DNA of 64,000 nucleotides from Octopus sinensis (lineage: Eukaryota): positions 161,014,001-161,078,000 of the forward strand of contig NC_042999.1 in NCBI RefSeq assembly GCF_006345805.1, read 5' to 3'. Both the position numbers and the translations under genes were made by a program. This document shows positions 3,874-28,075 of the stretch, in pieces; position 1 is the stretch's first letter; every line of letters starts with the position of its first letter. Under the pieces are notes generated by a model, which saw only the letters and a program-made list of their open reading frames with translations, was not told where the DNA came from and did no database searches.

Positions 3874-3916
<43 letters not shown>

Positions 3917-4188
3917 TTAATAAGGGTGAGAGAATTAGATACTAATTTAATAGTATATCTATTCAACACCAAGTGGCCTAGTGCTCCGAGAAACCTGGAT
4001 TATTATAATATTTTATAACATATTATAATATTTTTACAAAATAAATATAAGAGAGTGGTCACTATATGGCTCACTCTAGCACACCAGTTAATCCAAAAGG
4101 TTTCAACCACGAAAATACAGTTTCCCATGAAAGTCAGTACGATTGTTAGCTCACACGGACAGGGCAAATAAAAAATAACAAAAATACA

Positions 4189-4281
4189 GATTATTTTGGG
4201 ACAATTGTTTCGCTATTAATGAATTAAATGTAATTTTACTTACAAAAAAAATCCATTTGTAGCTCGTCAGCCAAAACTATC
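4189..4281 (-). ncRNA. Type I hammerhead ribozyme motif (array copy 1)
   Basis: Reverse complement: GATAGTTTTGG-CTGACGA-GCTA...TAGC-GAAA-CAATTG-TC-CCAAAATAATC. Confidence 0.85.
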
Positions 4282-4715
4282 TGGATGAAATCCACTCAAT
4301 CACACGCCAGATTTTACCATAACGATAAATACGCGTGTGGTTCAATTGATTACATCCGACGTTATAATTCAAATGCCCCAACTAACAGCGCGCCAAACTT
4401 TACGGAACAAATACAGCATTTAGAATAAATGCAGCATAATTATAATTAATTAATAAGGGTGAGAGAATTAGATACTAATTTAATAGTATATCTATTCAAC
4501 ACCAAGTGGCCTAGTGCTCCGAGAAACCTGGATTATTATAATATTTTATAACATATTATAATTTTACAAAATAAATATAAGAGAGTGGTCACTATATGGC
4601 TCACTCTAGCACCAGTTAATCAAAGGTTTCAACCACGAAAATACATGTTTCCATGAAAGTCAGTACGATTGTTAGCTCACACGGACAGGGCAAAAAAAAA
4701 AATAACAAAAATACA

Positions 4716-4808
4716 GATTTTTTGGGACAATTGTTTCGCTATTAATGAATTAAATGTAATTTTACTTACAAAAAAAATCCATTTGTAGCTCGTCAGCGAA
4801 AAACTATC
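4716..4808 (-). ncRNA. Type I hammerhead ribozyme motif (array copy 2, helix I variant)
   Basis: Same core; small differences in helix I. Confidence 0.75.
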
Positions 4809-5249
4809 TGGATGAAATCCACTCAATCACACGCCAGATTTTACCATAACGATAAATACGCGTGTGGTTCAATTGATTACATCCGACGTTATAATTCAAA
4901 TGCCCCAACTAACAGCGCGCCAAATTCACGGAAAACAAATACAGCATTTAGAAATAAATGCAGCATAATTATAATTAATTAATAAGGGTGAGAGAATTAG
5001 ATACTAATTTAATAGTATATCTATTCAACACCAAGTGGCCTAGTGCTCCGAGAAACCTGGATTATTATAATATTTTATAACATATTATAATATTTTTACA
5101 AAATAAATATAAGAGAGTGGTCACTATATGGCTCACTCTAGCACCAGTTAATCCAAAAGGTTTCAACACGAAAAATACATGTTTCCCATGAAAGTCAGTA
5201 CGATTGTTAGCTCACACGGACAGGGCAAATAAAAAATAACAAAAATACA

Positions 5250-5341
5250 GATTATTTTGGGACAATTGTTTCGCTATTAATGAATTAATGTAATTTTACT
5301 TACAAAAAAAATCCATTTGTAGCTCGTCAGCCAAAACTATC
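5250..5341 (-). ncRNA. Type I hammerhead ribozyme motif (array copy 3)
   Basis: Intact core as in copy 1. Confidence 0.85.
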
Positions 5342-5781
5342 TGGATGAAATCCACTCAATCACACGCCAGATTTTACCATAACGATAAATACGTGTGGGT
5401 TCAATTGATTACATCCGACGTTATAATTCAAATGCCCCAACTAACAGCGCGCCAAACTTTCACGGAAAACAAATACAGCATTTAGAAATAAATGCAGCAT
5501 AATTATAATTAATTAATAAGGGTGAGAGAATTAGATATAATTTAATAGTATATCTATTCAACACCAAGTGGCCTAGTGCTCCGAGAAACCTGGATTATTA
5601 TAATATTTTATAACATATTATAATATTTTTACAAAATAAATATAAGAGAGTGGTCACTATATGGCTCACTCTAGCACCAGTTAATCCAAAAGGTTTCAAC
5701 CACGAAAATACATGTTTCCCATGAAAGTCAGTACGATTGTTAGCTCACACGGACAGGGCAAATAAAAATAACAAAAATACA

Positions 5782-5874
5782 GATTATTTTGGGACAATTG
5801 TTTCGCTATTAATGAATTAAATGTAATTTTACTTACAAAAAAAATCCATTTGTAGCTCGTCAGCCAAAACTATC
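5782..5874 (-). ncRNA. Type I hammerhead ribozyme motif (array copy 4)
   Basis: Intact core as in copy 1. Confidence 0.85.
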
Positions 5875-6316
5875 TGGATGAAATCCACTCAATCACACGC
5901 CAGATTTTACCATAACGATAAATACGCGTGTGGTTCAATTGATTACATCCGACGTTATAATTCAAATGCCCCAACTAACAGCGCGCCAAACTTTCACGGA
6001 AAACAAATACAGCATTTAGAAATAAATGCAGCATAATTATAATTAATTAATAAGGGTGAGAGAATTAGATACTAATTTAATAGTATATCTATTCAACACC
6101 AAGTGGCCTAGTGCTCCGAGAAACCTGGATTATTATAATATTTTATAACATATTATAATATTTTTAAAAAATAAATATAAGAGAGTGGTCACTATATGGC
6201 TCACTCTAGCACCAGTTAATCCAAAAGGTTTCAAACACGAAAATACATGTTTCCCATGAAAGTCAGTACGATTGTTAGCTCACACGGACAGGGCAAATAA
6301 AAAATAACAAAATACA

Positions 6317-6410
6317 GATTATTTTGGGACAATTGTTTCGCTATTAATGAATTAAATGTAATTTTACTTACAAAAAAAATCCATTGTAGTCGTCGTCAGC
6401 CAAAACTATC
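6317..6410 (-). ncRNA. Type I hammerhead ribozyme motif (array copy 5, helix II base variant)
   Basis: Core present; TAGTCGTCGTCAG in place of TAGCTCGTCAG. Confidence 0.7.
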
Positions 6411-6945
6411 TGGATGAAATCCACTCAATCACACGCCAGATTTTACCATAACGATAAATACGCGTGTGGTTCAATTGATTACATCCGACGTTATAATTCA
6501 AATGCCCCAACTAACAGCGCGCCAAACTTTCACGGAAAACAAATACAGCATTTAGAAATAAATGCAGCATAATTATAATTAATTAATAAGGGTGAGAGAA
6601 TTAGATACTATTTAATAGTATATCTATTCAACACCAAGTGGCCTAGTGCTCCGAGAAACTGGATTATTATAATATTTTATAACATATTATAATATTTTTA
6701 CAAAATAAATATAAGAGAGTGGTCACTATATGGCTCACTCTAGCACCAGTTAATCCAATTCTCTCACCCTTATTATTAATATTAATTATGCTGCATTTAT
6801 TTCTAAATGCTGTATTTGTTTTCCGTGAAAGTTTGGCGCGCTGTTAGTTGGGGCATTTGAATTAATAAGTCGGATGTAATCAATTGAACCACACGCGTAT
6901 TCATTTATGGTAAAATCTGGCGTATGATTGAGTGGATTTCATCCA

Positions 6946-7038
6946 GATAGTTTTGGCTGACGAGCTACAAATGGATTTTTTTTGTAAGTAAAATTACATT
7001 TAATTCATTAATAGCGAACAAATTGTCCCAAAATAATC
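6946..7038 (+). ncRNA. Type I hammerhead ribozyme motif (inverted copy 1, GAAA box reads GAAC)
   Basis: CTGACGA at 6957; GCGAACAAATTGTC is a mutation or sequencing error. Confidence 0.65.
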
Positions 7039-7477
7039 TGTATTTTTGTTATTTTTTATTTGCCCTGTCCGTGTGAGCTAACAATCGTACTGACTTTCAT
7101 GGGAAACATGTATTTTCGTGGTTGAAACCTTTTGGATTAACTGGTGCTAGAGTGAGCCATATAGTGACCACTCTCTTATATTTTTTTGTAAAAATATTAT
7201 AATATGTTATAAAATATTATAATAATCCAGGTTTCTCGGAGCACTAGGCCACTTGGTGTTGAATAGATATACTATAAATTAGTATCTAATTCTCTCACCC
7301 TTATTAATTAATTATATTATGCTGCATTTATTTCTAAATGCTGTATTGTTTTCCGTGAAAGTTTGGCGCGCTGTTAGTTGGGGCATTTGAATTATAACGT
7401 CGGATGTAATCAATTGAACCACACGCGTATTTATCGTTATGGTAAAATCTGGCGTGTGATTGAGTGGATTTCATCCA

Positions 7478-7570
7478 GATAGTTTTGGCTGACGAGCTAC
7501 AAATGGATTTTTTTTGTAAGTAAAATTACATTTAATTCATTAATAGCGAAACAATTGTCCCAAAATAATC
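7478..7570 (+). ncRNA. Type I hammerhead ribozyme motif (inverted copy 2)
   Basis: CTGACGA 7489-7495; helix II GCTA/TAGC; GAAA 7548-7551; CAATTG; predicted GUC cleavage after 7559; helix I GATAGTTTTGG/CCAAAATAATC. Confidence 0.88.
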
Positions 7571-8013
7571 TGTATTTTTGTTATTTTTTATTTGCCCTGT
7601 ACGTGTGAGCTAACAATCGTACTGACTTCCATGGGAAACATGTATTTTCGTGGTTGAAACCTTTTGGATTAACTGGTGCTAGAGTGAGCCATATAGTGAC
7701 CACTCTCTTATATTTATTTTGTAAAAATATTATAATATGTTATAAAATATTATAATAATCCAGGTTTCTCGGAGCACTAGGCCACTTGGTGTTGAATAGA
7801 TATACTATTAAATTAGTATCTAATTCTCTCACACCTTATTAATTAATTATAATTATGCTTGCATTTATTCTAAATGCTGTATTTGTTTTCCGTGAAAGTT
7901 TGGCGCGCTGTTAGTTGGGGCATTTGATTATAACGTCGGATGTAATCAATTGAACCACACGCGTATTTATCGTTATGGTAAAATCTGGCGTGTGATTGAG
8001 TGGATTTCATCCA

Positions 8014-8106
8014 GATAGTTTTGGCTGACGAGCTACAAATGGATTTTTTTTGTAAGTAAAATTACATTTAATTCATTAATAGCGAAACAATTGTCCCAAA
8101 ATAATC
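8014..8106 (+). ncRNA. Type I hammerhead ribozyme motif (inverted copy 3)
   Basis: CTGACGA 8025-8031; GAAA 8084-8087; predicted GUC cleavage after 8095. Confidence 0.88.
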
Positions 8107-8289
8107 TGTATTTTTGTTATTTTTTATTTGCCCTGTCCGTGTGAGCTAACAATCGTACTGACTTTCATGGGAAACATGTATTTTCGTGGTTGAAACCTTT
8201 TGGATTAACTGGTGCTAGAGTGAGCCATATAGTGACCACTCTCTTATATTTATTTTATATATATATATATATATATTATGTTGGGTGGG

Positions 8290-9585: not shown

Positions 9586-9588
<3 letters not shown>
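9518..9588 (+). mobile_element. Ultra-short LINE/SINE 3' tail insertion with (TTTAAGGA)n end
   Basis: GCGGTGGCGTTCCAGCATGGCCGCAGCCTTCGTGCTAAAAC + TTTAAGGA repeats inside (TA)n; second copy at 17272. Confidence 0.7.
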
Positions 9589-9933
<345 letters not shown>

Positions 9934-10046
9934 TTCAAATGAATATGGTACTTAAGTTAGATGCACCAGAATTGTGTATGGTGTTATTCATATAAATCCA
10001 TGGGGTGATTATAATCAAAATAAGCAACAAGAATATCTTCGGTAAT

Positions 10047-10131
10047 TGGTACAATCGTTTCATGCTACTCCATTTAATTAAACAATGTATGTATTACATC
10101 AGTTTTAAAATTTAGAGCAGTCATCAGCCAC
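10047..10131 (-). ncRNA. Hammerhead motif, family 2 (degenerate helix II base)
   Basis: Reverse complement GG-CTGATGA-CTGCT...AGCAT-GAAA-CGATTG-TA-CCA. Confidence 0.65.
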
Positions 10132-10383
10132 ATGTGGAATTTTTAAAAAATTAAATTGACAACGGACATTCAGTGAGAAGAAATCTACCCATGAGGAAGG
10201 ATCTTCTACTACCATGCTTCTACTGGTGAATTTCACCTCTCTGTCCATATACCTACCCTCTTTGTACTGGAATTAAGGAGAAAAATGAATATTGTCAATT
10301 TAATTAAAAAAAAATATATCTGCCCTCTCTGTAATGTTATCAATTAATATGAAAATATGTATTAATGGAAAACCTCTATAAAA

Positions 10384-10465
10384 GGCTGATGATTGCTCAA
10401 CATTTTGAAAGTATTGTATGCTTGCAATGTTTGATGGAGTGATGTAGCGTGAGACGATCGTACCA
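10384..10465 (+). ncRNA. Hammerhead motif, family 2 (degenerate, GAAA>GAGA)
   Basis: GG-CTGATGA-TTGCT...AGCGT-GAGA-CGATCG-TA-CCA. Confidence 0.5.
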
Positions 10466-10515
10466 GATTACCGAAGATATTCTTGTTGCTTATTTTGATT
10501 ATATATATATATATG

Positions 10516-10569
<54 letters not shown>

Positions 10570-10651
10570 GCTTTTTCTGTTGTGATTTTTGCTACCCAGG
10601 TATCGGTTATCATTTGAATTATCCGTAATAAGATAATTCATTTATCTACTT

Positions 10652-10696
<45 letters not shown>

Positions 10697-10818
10697 AATA
10701 TATATATATATATGTATATAAATATAAATATATGTATATATATATATATATATAATTATATATATGTATGTATATGTGTAATATATATATATGTATATAT
10801 ATAATATATATATATATT

Positions 10819-10889
<71 letters not shown>

Positions 10890-10928
10890 GATGATCAGAG
10901 TGAGCAGCAGGGATATCCAAAGGTAGTG

Positions 10929-11012
10929 TAGTGCGATCGTTTCATGCTACTTCATTTGATTGGGCAATGTAGGTGTCGCATCAGTTTTGGAATGTGGAGC
11001 ACTCATCAGCCA
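10929..11012 (-). ncRNA. Hammerhead motif, family 2 (degenerate cleavage site)
   Basis: Reverse complement TGG-CTGATGA-GTGCT...AGCAT-GAAA-CGATCG-CA. Confidence 0.55.
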
Positions 11013-11215
11013 CATATGGAATTTAAAAAAAAATTATATTGACAATGTTCATTTTTTACTTAATTCCATTTGCCAACATTACAAAGAGGGTAGGTATATG
11101 GACAGAGAGGTGAAATTTACCAGTAGAAACATGGTAGTAGAAGATCCTTCCTCATGGGTAGATTTCTTCTCACTCAATGTCCGTTGTCAATTTAATTTTT
11201 AAAAAATTCCATATA

Positions 11216-11378
11216 GGCGCAGGAGTGGCTGTGTGGTTAGTAGCTTGCTAACCAACCACATGGTTCCGGGTTCAGTCCCACTGCGTGGCATCTTGGGCAA
11301 GTGTCTTCTGCTATAGCCCCGGGCCGACCAATGCCTTGTGAGTGGATTTGGTAGACGGAAACTGAAAGAAGCCTGTCG

Positions 11379-11449
<71 letters not shown>

Positions 11450-11652
11450 TTGTGTGTCTGTGTTTGTCCCCCTAGCATTGCTTGACAACCGATGCTGGTG
11501 TGTTTACGCCCCCGTCACTTAGCGGTTCGACAAAAGAGTTCGATAGAATAAGTACTGGGCTTACAACGAATAAGTCCCAGGGTCGATTTGCTCGACTAAA
11601 GGCGGTGCTCCAGCATGGCCGCAGTCAAATGACTGAAACAAGTAAAAAAAAA
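11216..11652 (+). mobile_element. SINE family A, full length
   Basis: tRNA-like head (TGGCTGTGTGG A-box-like, GGTTCAGTCCC B-box-like), internal (TA)n(TG)n, LINE-like tail. Confidence 0.9.
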
Positions 11653-11656
11653 GATG

Positions 11657-11740
11657 TGGCTGATGAGTGCTCTAAATTTTAAAACTGATGTAATACTTAC
11701 ATTGTTTAATTAAATGAAGTAGCATGAAACGATTGTACCA
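11657..11740 (+). ncRNA. Type I hammerhead motif, family 2, intact core
   Basis: TGG-CTGATGA(11660)-GTGCT...AGCAT-GAAA(11726)-CGATTG-TA-CCA; predicted GUA cleavage after 11737. Confidence 0.75.
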
Positions 11741-11786
11741 AATTACCGAAGATATTCTTGTTGCTTATTTTGGTTATATATATATG

Positions 11787-27507: not shown

Positions 27508-27715
27508 CTTTTACTTGTTTCAGTCATTTGACTGCGGCCATGCTGGAGCACCGCCTTTAATCGAGCAATTCGACCCCGGTACTTATTCTTTTGTAAGCCC
27601 AGTACTTATTCTATCGGACTCTTTTGCCGAACCGCTAAGTAACGGGGGCGTAAACACACCAGCATCGGTTGTCAAGCAATGCTAGGGGGACAAACAGACA
27701 CACAAACACACACGC

Positions 27716-27747
<32 letters not shown>

Positions 27748-27911
27748 ACGACGGGCTTCTTTCAGTTTCCGTCTACCAAATCCACTCACAAGGCTTTGGT
27801 CGGCCCGAGGCTATAGTAGAAGACACTTGCCCAAGGTACCACGCAGTGGGACTGAACCCGGAACCATGTGGTTGGTAAGCAAGCTACTTACCACACAGCC
27901 ACTCCGACGCC
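27508..27911 (-). mobile_element. SINE family A
   Basis: Full-length match. Confidence 0.9.
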
Positions 27912-28075
27912 TATTGTGTACGGACGTTTTTTTTTTATTCTTTCATTTATTTGTGATTTTGGCTACGTTGGATCATTATCACTATGTCAATGTTGAACGA
28001 GGGCAACCCCCTCTCCCTCTCTCTCTCTCTCTCTCTCTCAATTCTCTTTGTTCCGCCTTCACTTCTTTAACCAAA

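What the first reader, a model, noticed from the sequence alone, without database searches (positions are those of the whole stretch)
9940..11780. Second hammerhead-bearing family, present as two head-to-head pairs in (TA)n
Seen: four hammerhead motifs (10047-10131 -, 10384-10465 +, 10929-11012 -, 11657-11740 +) with CUGAUGA, GUGCU/AGCAU, GAAA, palindromic CGAUCG (or CGAUUG) and, in most copies, GUA. The primary sequence is unrelated to the 535-bp unit. Each minus-sense piece is fused 5'-to-5' with a plus-sense piece, and both plus pieces end at the same TATTTTG(A/G)TTATA point in (TA)n. Inference: an older family using the same twin-priming, TA-targeting mechanism, so the array is not a one-off.
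Basis: partly seen in the sequence, partly recalled or inferred. Interest (0 to 1): 0.75.

Follow-up and report, generated by a model that had tools for sequence, protein, structure and literature searches.

The report
Hammerhead-bearing Penelope-like retroelement fragments
The four hammerhead-like motifs are real and lie in truncated, head-to-head copies of the 3' end of a Hydra-type Penelope-like retrotransposon that is scattered thousands of times through (TA)n repeats of this octopus-like genome; this is the ordinary insertion pattern of such elements, and whether the motif still cuts RNA is untested.

Summary
Four hammerhead (HH)-like modules sit at the stated places, as two head-to-head pairs in (TA)n. 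They are fragments of one Penelope-like element (PLE) family with at least 3012 first-look candidates in the genome.

Longer copies run upstream into a GIY-YIG endonuclease and reverse-transcriptase (RT) remnants. A sister family keeps an open 947-aa frame. It carries the Hydra-clade signatures RWK, DKT, CxCX5C, CxxC and CxH, and its predicted fold is telomerase-like.

Insertions genome-wide have this form: (TA)n, a 95-nt "tail", an inverted 5'-truncated copy of variable length, a direct copy, then (TA)n. This is the published PLE pattern (Craig 2021; Frangieh 2024). The tail is the first 95 nt of the element's 5' UTR.

The HH core is far above chance and its helices covary. It is nonetheless atypical: G10.1·U11.1 or a mismatch at the helix II closing pair, about 59 nt between the core boxes, and only 13.6 bits against Rfam. 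Cleavage is untested.

In the window only copies A and D keep an intact core. The two pairs are not two simple independent events. This is a new member of a known kind, of modest interest.

The parts
9587..9933 (.). (TA)n, then (GA)n: the microsatellite that flanks the insertion on the left
9931..10009 (-). 'Tail': 79 of the family's 95 tail nucleotides. It equals the first bases of the element's 5' UTR and is read here on the minus strand.
   Evidence: 93.7% to the tail of L005
10010..10170 (-). Inverted 5'-truncated arm of pair 1. It contains HH copy A (10047-10131): core intact, C at 10.1, predicted cut between 10050 and 10049 on the minus strand.
10148..10315 (+). Direct-strand 3'-UTR segment of the element (subfamily 2 type), joined to arm A
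   Evidence: (I1)
10314..10503 (+). Direct arm of subfamily 1 type with HH copy B (10384-10465; GAGA instead of GAAA, U at 10.1). It ends in ..TTGATTATA at the (TA)n.
   Evidence: (86.9% to L021)
10504..10890 (.). (TA)n-rich spacer with about 85 nt of unique sequence (10567-10653)
10891..11198 (-). Inverted arm of pair 2 (82.5% to L017) with HH copy C (10929-11012; U16.1 replaced by C). No tail.
11176..11214 (+). Start of the direct arm of pair 2, upstream of the SINE
11215..11653 (.). Later insertion of an unrelated SINE-like repeat with an internal (GT)n; it splits the direct arm
   Evidence: at least 7 other copies in the window at 90-96%
11654..11778 (+). Rest of the direct arm of pair 2 with HH copy D (11657-11740). 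CUGAUGA is at 11660-11666 and GAAA at 11726-11729. The predicted cut lies between 11737 and 11738. The arm ends in ..TTGGTTATA at the (TA)n.

Best explanation
The four motifs are the hammerhead modules of 5'-truncated 3'-end copies of a Hydra-clade Penelope-like retrotransposon. The copies were likely laid down in (TA)n by reverse transcription primed on both strands of the cut target. The motif is predicted, not shown, to cleave only as a dimer.

Shown here:
- The family has thousands of copies, all ending at ..CTTGTTGCTTAYTTTGATTATA next to (TA)n.
- Many copies carry, on the other side, a 95-nt tail followed by an inverted copy of the same 3' end, broken at a different point in each locus.
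- Longer copies continue upstream through about 1.2 kb of 3' UTR into a GIY-YIG endonuclease and RT remnants.
- Related elements keep an open frame with Hydra-clade motifs and a telomerase-like RT fold.
- In tandem or full-length relatives the tail runs straight on into the 5' UTR and start codon.

Inferred (from Frangieh et al. 2024, who worked on a Poseidon PLE):
- The template is a transcript that crosses a unit junction.
- The RT starts at two internal sites, here 95 nt apart, which gives ends with or without the tail.
- Both target strands are cut and extended, which gives the head-to-head arms.

Every genomic copy continues 41 nt past the predicted cut site. The inserted templates were therefore uncleaved at that hammerhead. 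The ribozyme's role, perhaps processing of multimeric transcripts, remains open.

The window copies are dead fragments, rearranged by nested events and by a SINE insertion.
For: Copy number and ends:
- 3012 first-look candidates, 40 scored, giving 45 matches, all ending at query position about 132.
- two subfamilies; position N7 of the CUGANGA box is variable.

Tail and arms:
- 1329 candidates for the tail.
- in 28 of 30 tail loci the tail abuts TATAATC.., the inverted 3' end.
- an inverted arm was found by BLAST in 23 of 30 loci, with lengths from 26 to 1537 nt. A direct arm reaching the 3' end was found in 20 of 30. The upstream flank is TA-rich in 28 of 30.
- among 26 loci found with the HH query, 18 have the tail and 10 have an inverted arm. 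In 9 of those 10 the two arms are at least 93% alike.

Coding link:
- 1.5-kb copies.
- endonuclease and RT remnants.
- GIY-YIG at E = 5.9e-4.
- L112 has a 947-aa ORF, an HH 1.43 kb downstream, a tail, and an inverted truncated copy.
- 68% and 59% amino-acid identity between L112 and this family's remnants.
- RWK, DKT, CxCX5C, CxxC and CxH motifs are present.
- model pLDDT 75.3; the top fold match is TERT 3du5_A, E = 1.4e-9.

Tail equals 5' UTR.

Hammerhead:
- shuffle test.
- 84.7% of cells paired, against 22-53% when the partner columns are slid. Compensatory changes occur at 10.3:11.3, 2.4:1.4, 2.2:1.2 and in the inner hairpin. 0 of 500 shuffles reach the observed values.
- 70 of 84 cores are intact.
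- the minimum-energy fold of a D homodimer is the domain-swapped double hammerhead, at -32.6 against 2 x -12.9 kcal/mol.
- other PLE families in the genome carry HHs of the same build.

Literature:
- PMC8557442 (passages, section 11 and supplement rows).
- PMC11167929 (main text).
- PMC4209133 (passages).
Against: Hammerhead:
- Rfam gives no hit at gathering threshold and none at E <= 10 over 1951 nt.
- When only 121 nt are given, Hammerhead_1 scores 13.6 bits, E = 1.1, against a gathering score of 34. The 535-bp array's HH scores 30.1 bits.
- The G10.1-C11.1 pair, called highly conserved in PLE HHRs (PMC4209133), is G·U in 24, G-C in 1 and unpaired in 59 of 84 modules.
- RNAalifold predicts only a 4-bp hairpin at -0.47 kcal/mol.
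- The fold of D is no more stable than shuffles, z = -0.31.
- For A and for a subfamily-2 copy, the dimer minimum-energy fold uses another palindrome and not helix III.

Coding link:
- Pfam finds no RT in the 947-aa frame.
- A profile of the family finds no PDB sequence.
- This family's own coding copies are all decayed: the best open frames are about 300 aa at 80-87% identity. The intact ORF evidence therefore comes from relatives.

Sampling and scope:
- The 84 modules were chosen with a filter that needed a recognisable GAAA region (83 of 98 kept, plus C added by hand). Core conservation is therefore somewhat inflated.
- The mechanism is transferred from a different PLE clade.
Confidence: 0.85

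Rival explanations
1. The pieces are PLE fragments, but the hammerhead of this family is a decayed relic that no longer cleaved even in the master copies. Its conservation would then reflect another role of this 3' region, for example RT or endonuclease recognition.
For: The closing pair 10.1:11.1 is a wobble or a mismatch in 83 of 84 modules. Rfam scores it at 13.6 bits. There is no thermodynamic support. PLE min-HHRs have low activity in vitro (PMC4209133). HHR mutants did not affect insertion in vitro (PMC11167929).
Against: Within the CUGANGA box only the free position N7 varies (T 46, A 32, C 5, G 1). The other core columns are at least 96% constant. Compensatory changes keep helices I and II between subfamilies and the sister family. 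The dimer fold of D is the double hammerhead.
Confidence: 0.25
2. A non-autonomous retrozyme-type element that spreads through self-cleaved circular RNA, as proposed for animal type I hammerhead repeats.
For: It has a type I HH with a palindromic helix III, as in non-LTR retrozymes (PMC7229834, search listing only; bioRxiv 10.64898/2026.07.22.740005, abstract only). The neighbouring 535-bp array looks like one.
Against: This family has no head-to-tail monomers. Copies are not permuted around the cut site and all run 41 nt past it. Copies form a 5' truncation series that leads into an RT/endonuclease ORF.
Confidence: 0.05
3. A MITE-like DNA transposon with long terminal inverted repeats and TA target-site duplication.
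For: The head-to-head arms look like inverted terminal repeats of about 170 nt and both ends abut TA. Three places share one junction.
Against: Arm lengths differ from locus to locus, from 26 to 1537 nt. The tail is on one side only. 8 of 26 loci have neither tail nor inverted arm. The arms are the 3' end of an RT-encoding element.
Confidence: 0.03
4. L1-style twin priming of a poly(A)-less LINE.
For: 5'-truncated inverted and direct segments lie at one target.
Against: Both arms contain the same 3' terminus, rather than adjacent parts of the RNA. (How L1 twin priming works is recalled, not taken from a call.) The ORF has a GIY-YIG endonuclease, not an AP or REL one, and a TERT-like fold.
Confidence: 0.02

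Closest known systems
Hydra clade of Penelope-like elements (Craig et al. 2021, PMC8557442), including Hydra-1_Obim of Octopus bimaculoides
   Same: [quoted passage not shown] RWK and DKT motifs, a CxCX5C linker, and CxxC and CxH around the conserved E and N (against section 11 of the paper). Insertion into (TA)n. A sense-strand HHR near the 3' end. The protein stretches printed in the paper's supplement resemble the L112 frame, by eye only.
   Different: The unit is about 4.6 kb, against '<3 kb' in the paper and 2507 bp for Hydra-1_Obim. It has long Asn-rich linkers and a 3' UTR of about 1.4 kb. Hydra-1_Obim's HHR has a 7-bp helix II with an 8-nt loop and an ACCA-A-UGGU helix III (supplement row); here there are 59 nt between the core boxes and an 8-nt perfect palindrome. 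Hydra-1_Obim is listed with 'no pLTR'; here tandem junctions and tails occur.
PAc (Poseidon PLE of Anolis) in vitro system (Frangieh et al. 2024, PMC11167929)
   Same: AT-rich targets. Both strands are cleaved and extended. RT starts at two internal sites, and the 'tail' is the sequence between them. Templates cross a pLTR-ORF junction. HHR cleavage is not needed for insertion.
   Different: A different clade. The tail is 95 nt here (about 115 nt in the sister family), against 30-40 bp. The HH cut site lies 41 nt before the unit junction rather than inside the ORF start. Nothing was tested biochemically here.
Minimal type I hammerheads of PLEs (Cervera & de la Pena 2014, PMC4209133)
   Same: Type I topology, short helix I, a palindromic helix III that should need a second copy (dimer), and location in the terminal repeats.
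   Different: G10.1-C11.1 is not kept (G·U or mismatch). Helix II carries an imperfect hairpin of about 50 nt. The Rfam type I model scores 13.6 bits.
L1 twin priming (recalled, not from a call)
   Same: An inversion with 5' truncation formed at insertion.
   Different: Both arms start from the same 3' end. There is no poly(A). The endonuclease is of the GIY-YIG type.
Non-LTR retrozymes of animals
   Same: A type I HH with a weak palindromic helix III; derivation from PLEs has been proposed.
   Different: This family has no tandem monomers, and its copies are not bounded by the cut site.

Membership tests
Hammerhead ribozyme, type I | Conserved core CUGANGA ... GAAA with U16.1 and H17 | tested here: met
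   2 of 4 window copies (A, D) and 70 of 84 genome modules are intact. B has GAGA and C has C16.1.
Hammerhead ribozyme, type I | Helices I and II flank the core and are kept by covariation | tested here: met
   84.7% of cells paired against 22-53% when slid; 7 pairs with changes on both sides; 0 of 500 shuffles reach the observed values. Caveats: the sequences are related and the structure was derived from them.
Hammerhead ribozyme, type I | G10.1-C11.1 closing pair of helix II | tested here: not met
   G·U in 24, G-C in 1 and unpaired in 59 of 84.
Hammerhead ribozyme, type I | Rfam RF00163 score at or above the gathering score (34 bits) | tested here: not met
   13.6 bits, E = 1.1; no hit.
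Hammerhead ribozyme, type I | Site-specific self-cleavage | not testable with these tools
   No RNA run kept as raw reads was available.
Penelope-like elements, Hydra clade | Telomerase-like RT and C-terminal GIY-YIG endonuclease in one ORF | tested here: met
   The sister family's 947-aa frame has YRDD and GIY..YIG motifs. Its predicted fold best matches TERT, E = 1.4e-9. GIY-YIG in this family's remnant scores E = 5.9e-4, 20.5 bits, below the cut-off of 22.6. Pfam RVT_1 is not hit.
Penelope-like elements, Hydra clade | RWK, DKT, CxCX5C linker, and CxxC and CxH in the endonuclease | tested here: met
   L112 residues 37, 124, 808, 905 and 935. CxCX5C, CxxC and CxH are also present in this family's remnant L086.
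Penelope-like elements, Hydra clade | Absence of the internal CCHH motif; placement in an RT phylogeny | not tested
   Reference sequences from the paper's supplement were not passed to tools.
Penelope-like elements (general) | 5' truncation, partial tandems, an adjacent inverted 5'-truncated copy, a tail at one end, and microsatellite targets | tested here: met
Non-LTR retrozyme | Head-to-tail monomers, each with one HH | tested here: not met
   no tandem units of this family.
MITE / TA-targeting DNA transposon | Terminal inverted repeats of fixed extent | tested here: not met
   arm lengths from 26 to 1537 nt, differing between loci.
MITE / TA-targeting DNA transposon | TA target-site duplication | tested here: inconclusive
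   The ends lie in (TA)n, so a duplication cannot be read.

The most novel reading that the evidence does not exclude
This family's hammerhead is a working ribozyme that depends on a dimer or on element protein. It has a G10.1·U11.1 wobble and a helix II extension of about 50 nt, features that standard models miss. The 95-nt tail marks a second internal RT start site inside the next unit of a multimeric transcript. Thousands of octopus insertions would then record, in a second PLE clade, the two-site and two-strand priming so far shown only in vitro for one lizard element.
Probability: 0.3. Interest if true: 0.45.

Novelty: new member of a known kind. Interest (0 to 1): 0.3.

Why it matters
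The result explains a recurrent class of inverted repeats at (TA)n microsatellites in a cephalopod-like genome as ordinary Penelope-like insertions.

It gives genomic support, in the Hydra clade, for the tail and two-start-site model that was derived in vitro from a Poseidon element.

It flags a hammerhead variant that Rfam models and common descriptors would miss.

For annotation, these motifs should be labelled as PLE 3' ends, not as independent ribozyme genes.

Tried and rejected
- Rfam at gathering threshold and at E <= 10 over the whole region found no hammerhead. Only a 13.6-bit match appeared when 121 nt were given.
- RNAalifold on 84 modules gave only a 4-bp hairpin.
- Single-strand folds were no better than shuffles.
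- RNA evidence: no RNA holder is listed. The four runs laid are contigs of unrecorded type, and no begin or end sites were reported, so nothing can be said on expression or cleavage.
- Pfam on the 947-aa and 890-aa frames gave no family. The homologues found are unnamed. A profile search of PDB sequences gave 0 hits. BLASTP to another PLE family of the genome gave only E = 0.096. The fold search settled the RT question.
- Search for the shared junction of the two window pairs: only 3 places in the genome span it. It lies in an internal inverted repeat of about 15 nt, so inheritance and recurrence could not be told apart.
- The search of earlier findings returned nothing.
- One own-genome search used wrong coordinates and hit only unique flank.
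- A MITE reading was considered early, and was dropped.
Full report
**What is there.**
The region 9931-11785 lies in a (TA)n tract. It holds four modules with a hammerhead (HH) core.
- A: 10047-10131, minus strand.
- B: 10384-10465, plus strand.
- C: 10929-11012, minus strand.
- D: 11657-11740, plus strand.

All four have CUGAUGA and a 6-nt palindrome (CGAUCG or CGAUUG) directly after the GAAA box.
- A and D have a complete core; A has C at position 10.1.
- B reads GAGA instead of GAAA.
- C has C instead of U16.1.

Both plus-strand pieces end at TTATTTTG(A/G)TTATA and then (TA)n. A SINE-like repeat (11215-11653) splits the second pair. It has at least 7 other copies in the window.

A structural descriptor finds A, D and six sites of the 535-bp array. 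In 300 dinucleotide shuffles of the window the mean was 0.0067 hits, and 2 of 300 shuffles had any hit. The motifs are therefore not chance. The 535-bp unit shows no BLAST similarity to this family beyond E = 0.01.

**The family.**
A search of the window's own 2.72-Gb genome with D and its 3' flank gave 3012 first-look candidates. Of these, 40 were scored, giving 45 matches at 90-96% identity, nearly all ending at the same base next to (TA)n.

Two subfamilies differ in the helix I strands and in the 41 nt after the predicted cut.

Upstream of many direct copies lies a constant 95-nt 'tail' (1329 candidates). In 28 of 30 tail loci it abuts the inverted 3' end, TATAATCAAA...

By BLAST against a natural long copy:
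- 23 of 30 loci have an inverted arm, with lengths from 26 to 1537 nt that differ between loci.
- 20 of 30 have a direct arm reaching the 3' terminus.
- 28 of 30 are TA-rich upstream.

Among 26 loci found with the HH query, 18 have the tail upstream and 10 have an inverted arm. In 9 of those 10 the two arms of a locus are at least 93% alike. That is closer than copies at different loci (about 90-92%), as expected if both arms came from one template in one event.

**Link to a coding element.**
Copies align over up to 1.5 kb. Their 5' part encodes the C-terminal half of a GIY-YIG endonuclease. Further copies add a CxCX5C linker and RT remnants such as LYRDDALF. Pfam gives GIY-YIG at E = 5.9e-4, 20.5 bits, below the cut-off. 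This family's own coding copies are decayed: the best open frames are about 300 aa at 80-87% identity.

A sister family is better preserved.
- It shares 68% amino-acid identity in the RT and 59% in the endonuclease with this family's remnants.
- Locus L112 has an open 947-aa frame.
- An HH of the same build lies 1.43 kb downstream.
- The 3' end is alike (..ATTCTTGTTGCTT..TTATA), followed by a tail, then (TA)n.
- An inverted 5'-truncated copy lies on the left.

In L113, and in the nearest relatives L110/L135/L136, the tail runs seamlessly into the 5' UTR and the start codon. The HH, 3' end and tail of L135/L136 are 88% identical to this family's. The tail is therefore the first ~95 nt of the next unit. 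The unit is about 4.6 kb long.

**Which kind of element.**
The 947-aa frame gets no Pfam family, and a profile of its homologues finds no PDB sequence.

Its predicted structure (pLDDT 75.3, pTM 0.72) best matches telomerase RT (3du5_A, E = 1.4e-9). Other reverse transcriptases follow, among them DRT9, retron, group II intron, R2 and LINE-1 RTs.

The frame carries RWK (residue 37), DKT (124), YRDD (355), CxCX5C (808), GIY..YIG (827-845), CxxC (905) and CxH (935). Section 11 of Craig et al. 2021 names RWK, DKT, CxCX5C, CxxC and CxH as marks of the Hydra clade, together with (TA)n insertion and an HHR (PMC8557442).

That paper's supplement lists Hydra-1_Obim from Octopus bimaculoides: 2507 bp, (TA)n, with an HHR at position 2403. 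Protein stretches printed there resemble this frame by eye. I did not pass them to tools.

The only named homologue is an Octopus sinensis record (68% identity over 21% of the query). From this I infer an octopus-like host.

**How it likely works.**
Craig et al. describe PLE insertions as follows (passages):
- 5'-truncated;
- partly tandem;
- often with an inverted 5'-truncated copy at the 5' side;
- with a 30-40-bp tail at one end;
- biased to microsatellites.

Frangieh et al. 2024 showed several things in vitro for a Poseidon element (PMC11167929, main text):
- The protein cuts and extends both strands of AT-rich DNA.
- RT starts at two internal sites of an RNA that spans the pLTR-ORF junction.
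- The tail is the sequence between those sites.
- HHR mutants do not affect insertion.
- The HHR needs the protein to cleave.

The anatomy here fits point by point, with the two end classes 95 nt apart. This transfer between clades is inference.

One thing is shown directly by the sequence: all 84 aligned modules continue past the predicted cut. The inserted templates were therefore uncleaved at that site.

**Is the hammerhead real?**
For:
- Core columns are 98.6% constant, against 88.9% for the other columns.
- Inside the CUGANGA box only the free position N7 varies (T 46, A 32, C 5, G 1).
- The named structure is paired in 84.7% of cells, against 22-53% when the partner columns are slid.
- Compensatory changes occur at 10.3:11.3 (G-C/A-U), 2.4:1.4 (G-C/U-A), 2.2:1.2 and the inner hairpin (A-U 29, U-A 28). 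0 of 500 shuffles reach the observed values.
- The minimum-energy fold of a D homodimer is the domain-swapped double hammerhead with an 8-bp helix III (-32.6 against 2 x -12.9 kcal/mol).
- Unrelated PLE families of the same genome carry HHs with the same plan and other palindromes: CUCGAG, CAAUUG, CAGCUG.

Against:
- Rfam Hammerhead_1 reaches only 13.6 bits (E = 1.1) on D, and nothing in wider searches. The 535-bp array's HH reaches 30.1 bits.
- The 10.1:11.1 pair is G·U in 24, G-C in 1 and unpaired in 59 of 84. Cervera & de la Pena call G10.1-C11.1 highly conserved.
- RNAalifold finds only a 4-bp hairpin.
- Fold energies are ordinary (z = -0.31).
- For A and a subfamily-2 copy, the best dimer uses another palindrome.

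The 84 modules are 83 of 98 distinct BLAST hits that passed a landmark filter, plus C added by hand. This inflates the measured conservation of the GAAA box.

**The window's two pairs.**
Mapping to natural copies gives the following.
- Pair 1: tail 9931-10009, inverted arm 10010-10170, then a direct segment 10148-10511 whose last 190 nt are of subfamily 1 type.
- Pair 2: inverted arm 10891-11198, then direct arm 11176-11214 plus 11654-11785.

A and D are 97% complementary over 88 nt, and the adjoining 138 nt are 96% complementary. Within pairs, A-B and C-D are 73% and 77% alike. Only three places in the genome span the junction next to A: the two window pairs and one locus on another contig.

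The region is therefore a mosaic of nested or duplicated events plus a SINE, not two clean insertions. I could not order these events.

**Verdict.**
This is a further family of an already described kind: Hydra-clade PLEs with HHRs in (TA)n, known from Octopus. Its particulars are a longer unit, a 95-nt tail and an atypical hammerhead.

Noticed in passing
window 3901-8279: The 535-bp array is itself head-to-head: about 5.3 units at 3901-6758 with the HH on the minus strand, and about 2.9 inverted units at 6753-8279. Units are 96-98% alike and (TA)n lies at both outer ends. Its HH is canonical: UUUUGG/CCAAAA helix I, CUGACGA, G10.1-C11.1, palindrome CAAUUG, cut after UC. It scores 30.1 bits against Rfam Hammerhead_1, below the gathering score of 34.
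   Followed up: partly
window 63402-63606: A third head-to-head insertion from a related family lies in (TA)n. It has a tail-like sequence (81% to the tail over 104 nt), a 44-nt inverted arm, and a direct arm that starts inside GAAA-CAAUUG-UA. The two arms are nearly symmetrical.
   Followed up: partly
window 53640-53688: An isolated 49-nt fragment matches the end of the tail (86%).
   Followed up: no
window 11787-11978: A near-perfect long inverted repeat (arms of about 88 nt, centred on ggctacacgtgtagcc) lies directly after arm D. It looks like a foldback or MITE-like element.
   Followed up: no
window 11215-11653 and at least 7 other places (e.g. 44588-45030, 52685-53087, 27509-27914): An abundant SINE-like repeat with an internal (GT)n; copies are 90-96% alike.
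   Followed up: no
L113 2241 (-) and 2704 (+); L070 977 (+) and 2319 (-); L065 2621 (+); L067 652 (-): Other hammerhead motifs of the same plan lie near other GIY-YIG loci of the genome, with palindromes CGAUUG, CAGCUG, CGAUCG, CUCGAG and CAAUUG. The one at L113 2241 is compact, with a 5-bp helix II and a 6-nt loop.
   Followed up: no
G000 genome-wide: PLE-type coding sequence is very abundant: 5029 first-look candidates for GIY-YIG and 10216 for the RT fragment. Many open frames are 600-1124 aa long. One other family (L068/L069) passes both Pfam RVT_1 and GIY-YIG.
   Followed up: partly
L135 and L136 (C29, two places about 15 Mb apart): Two near-identical copies of the same composite: a PLE with a nested insertion, together with its neighbours. 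This suggests a segmental duplication.
   Followed up: no
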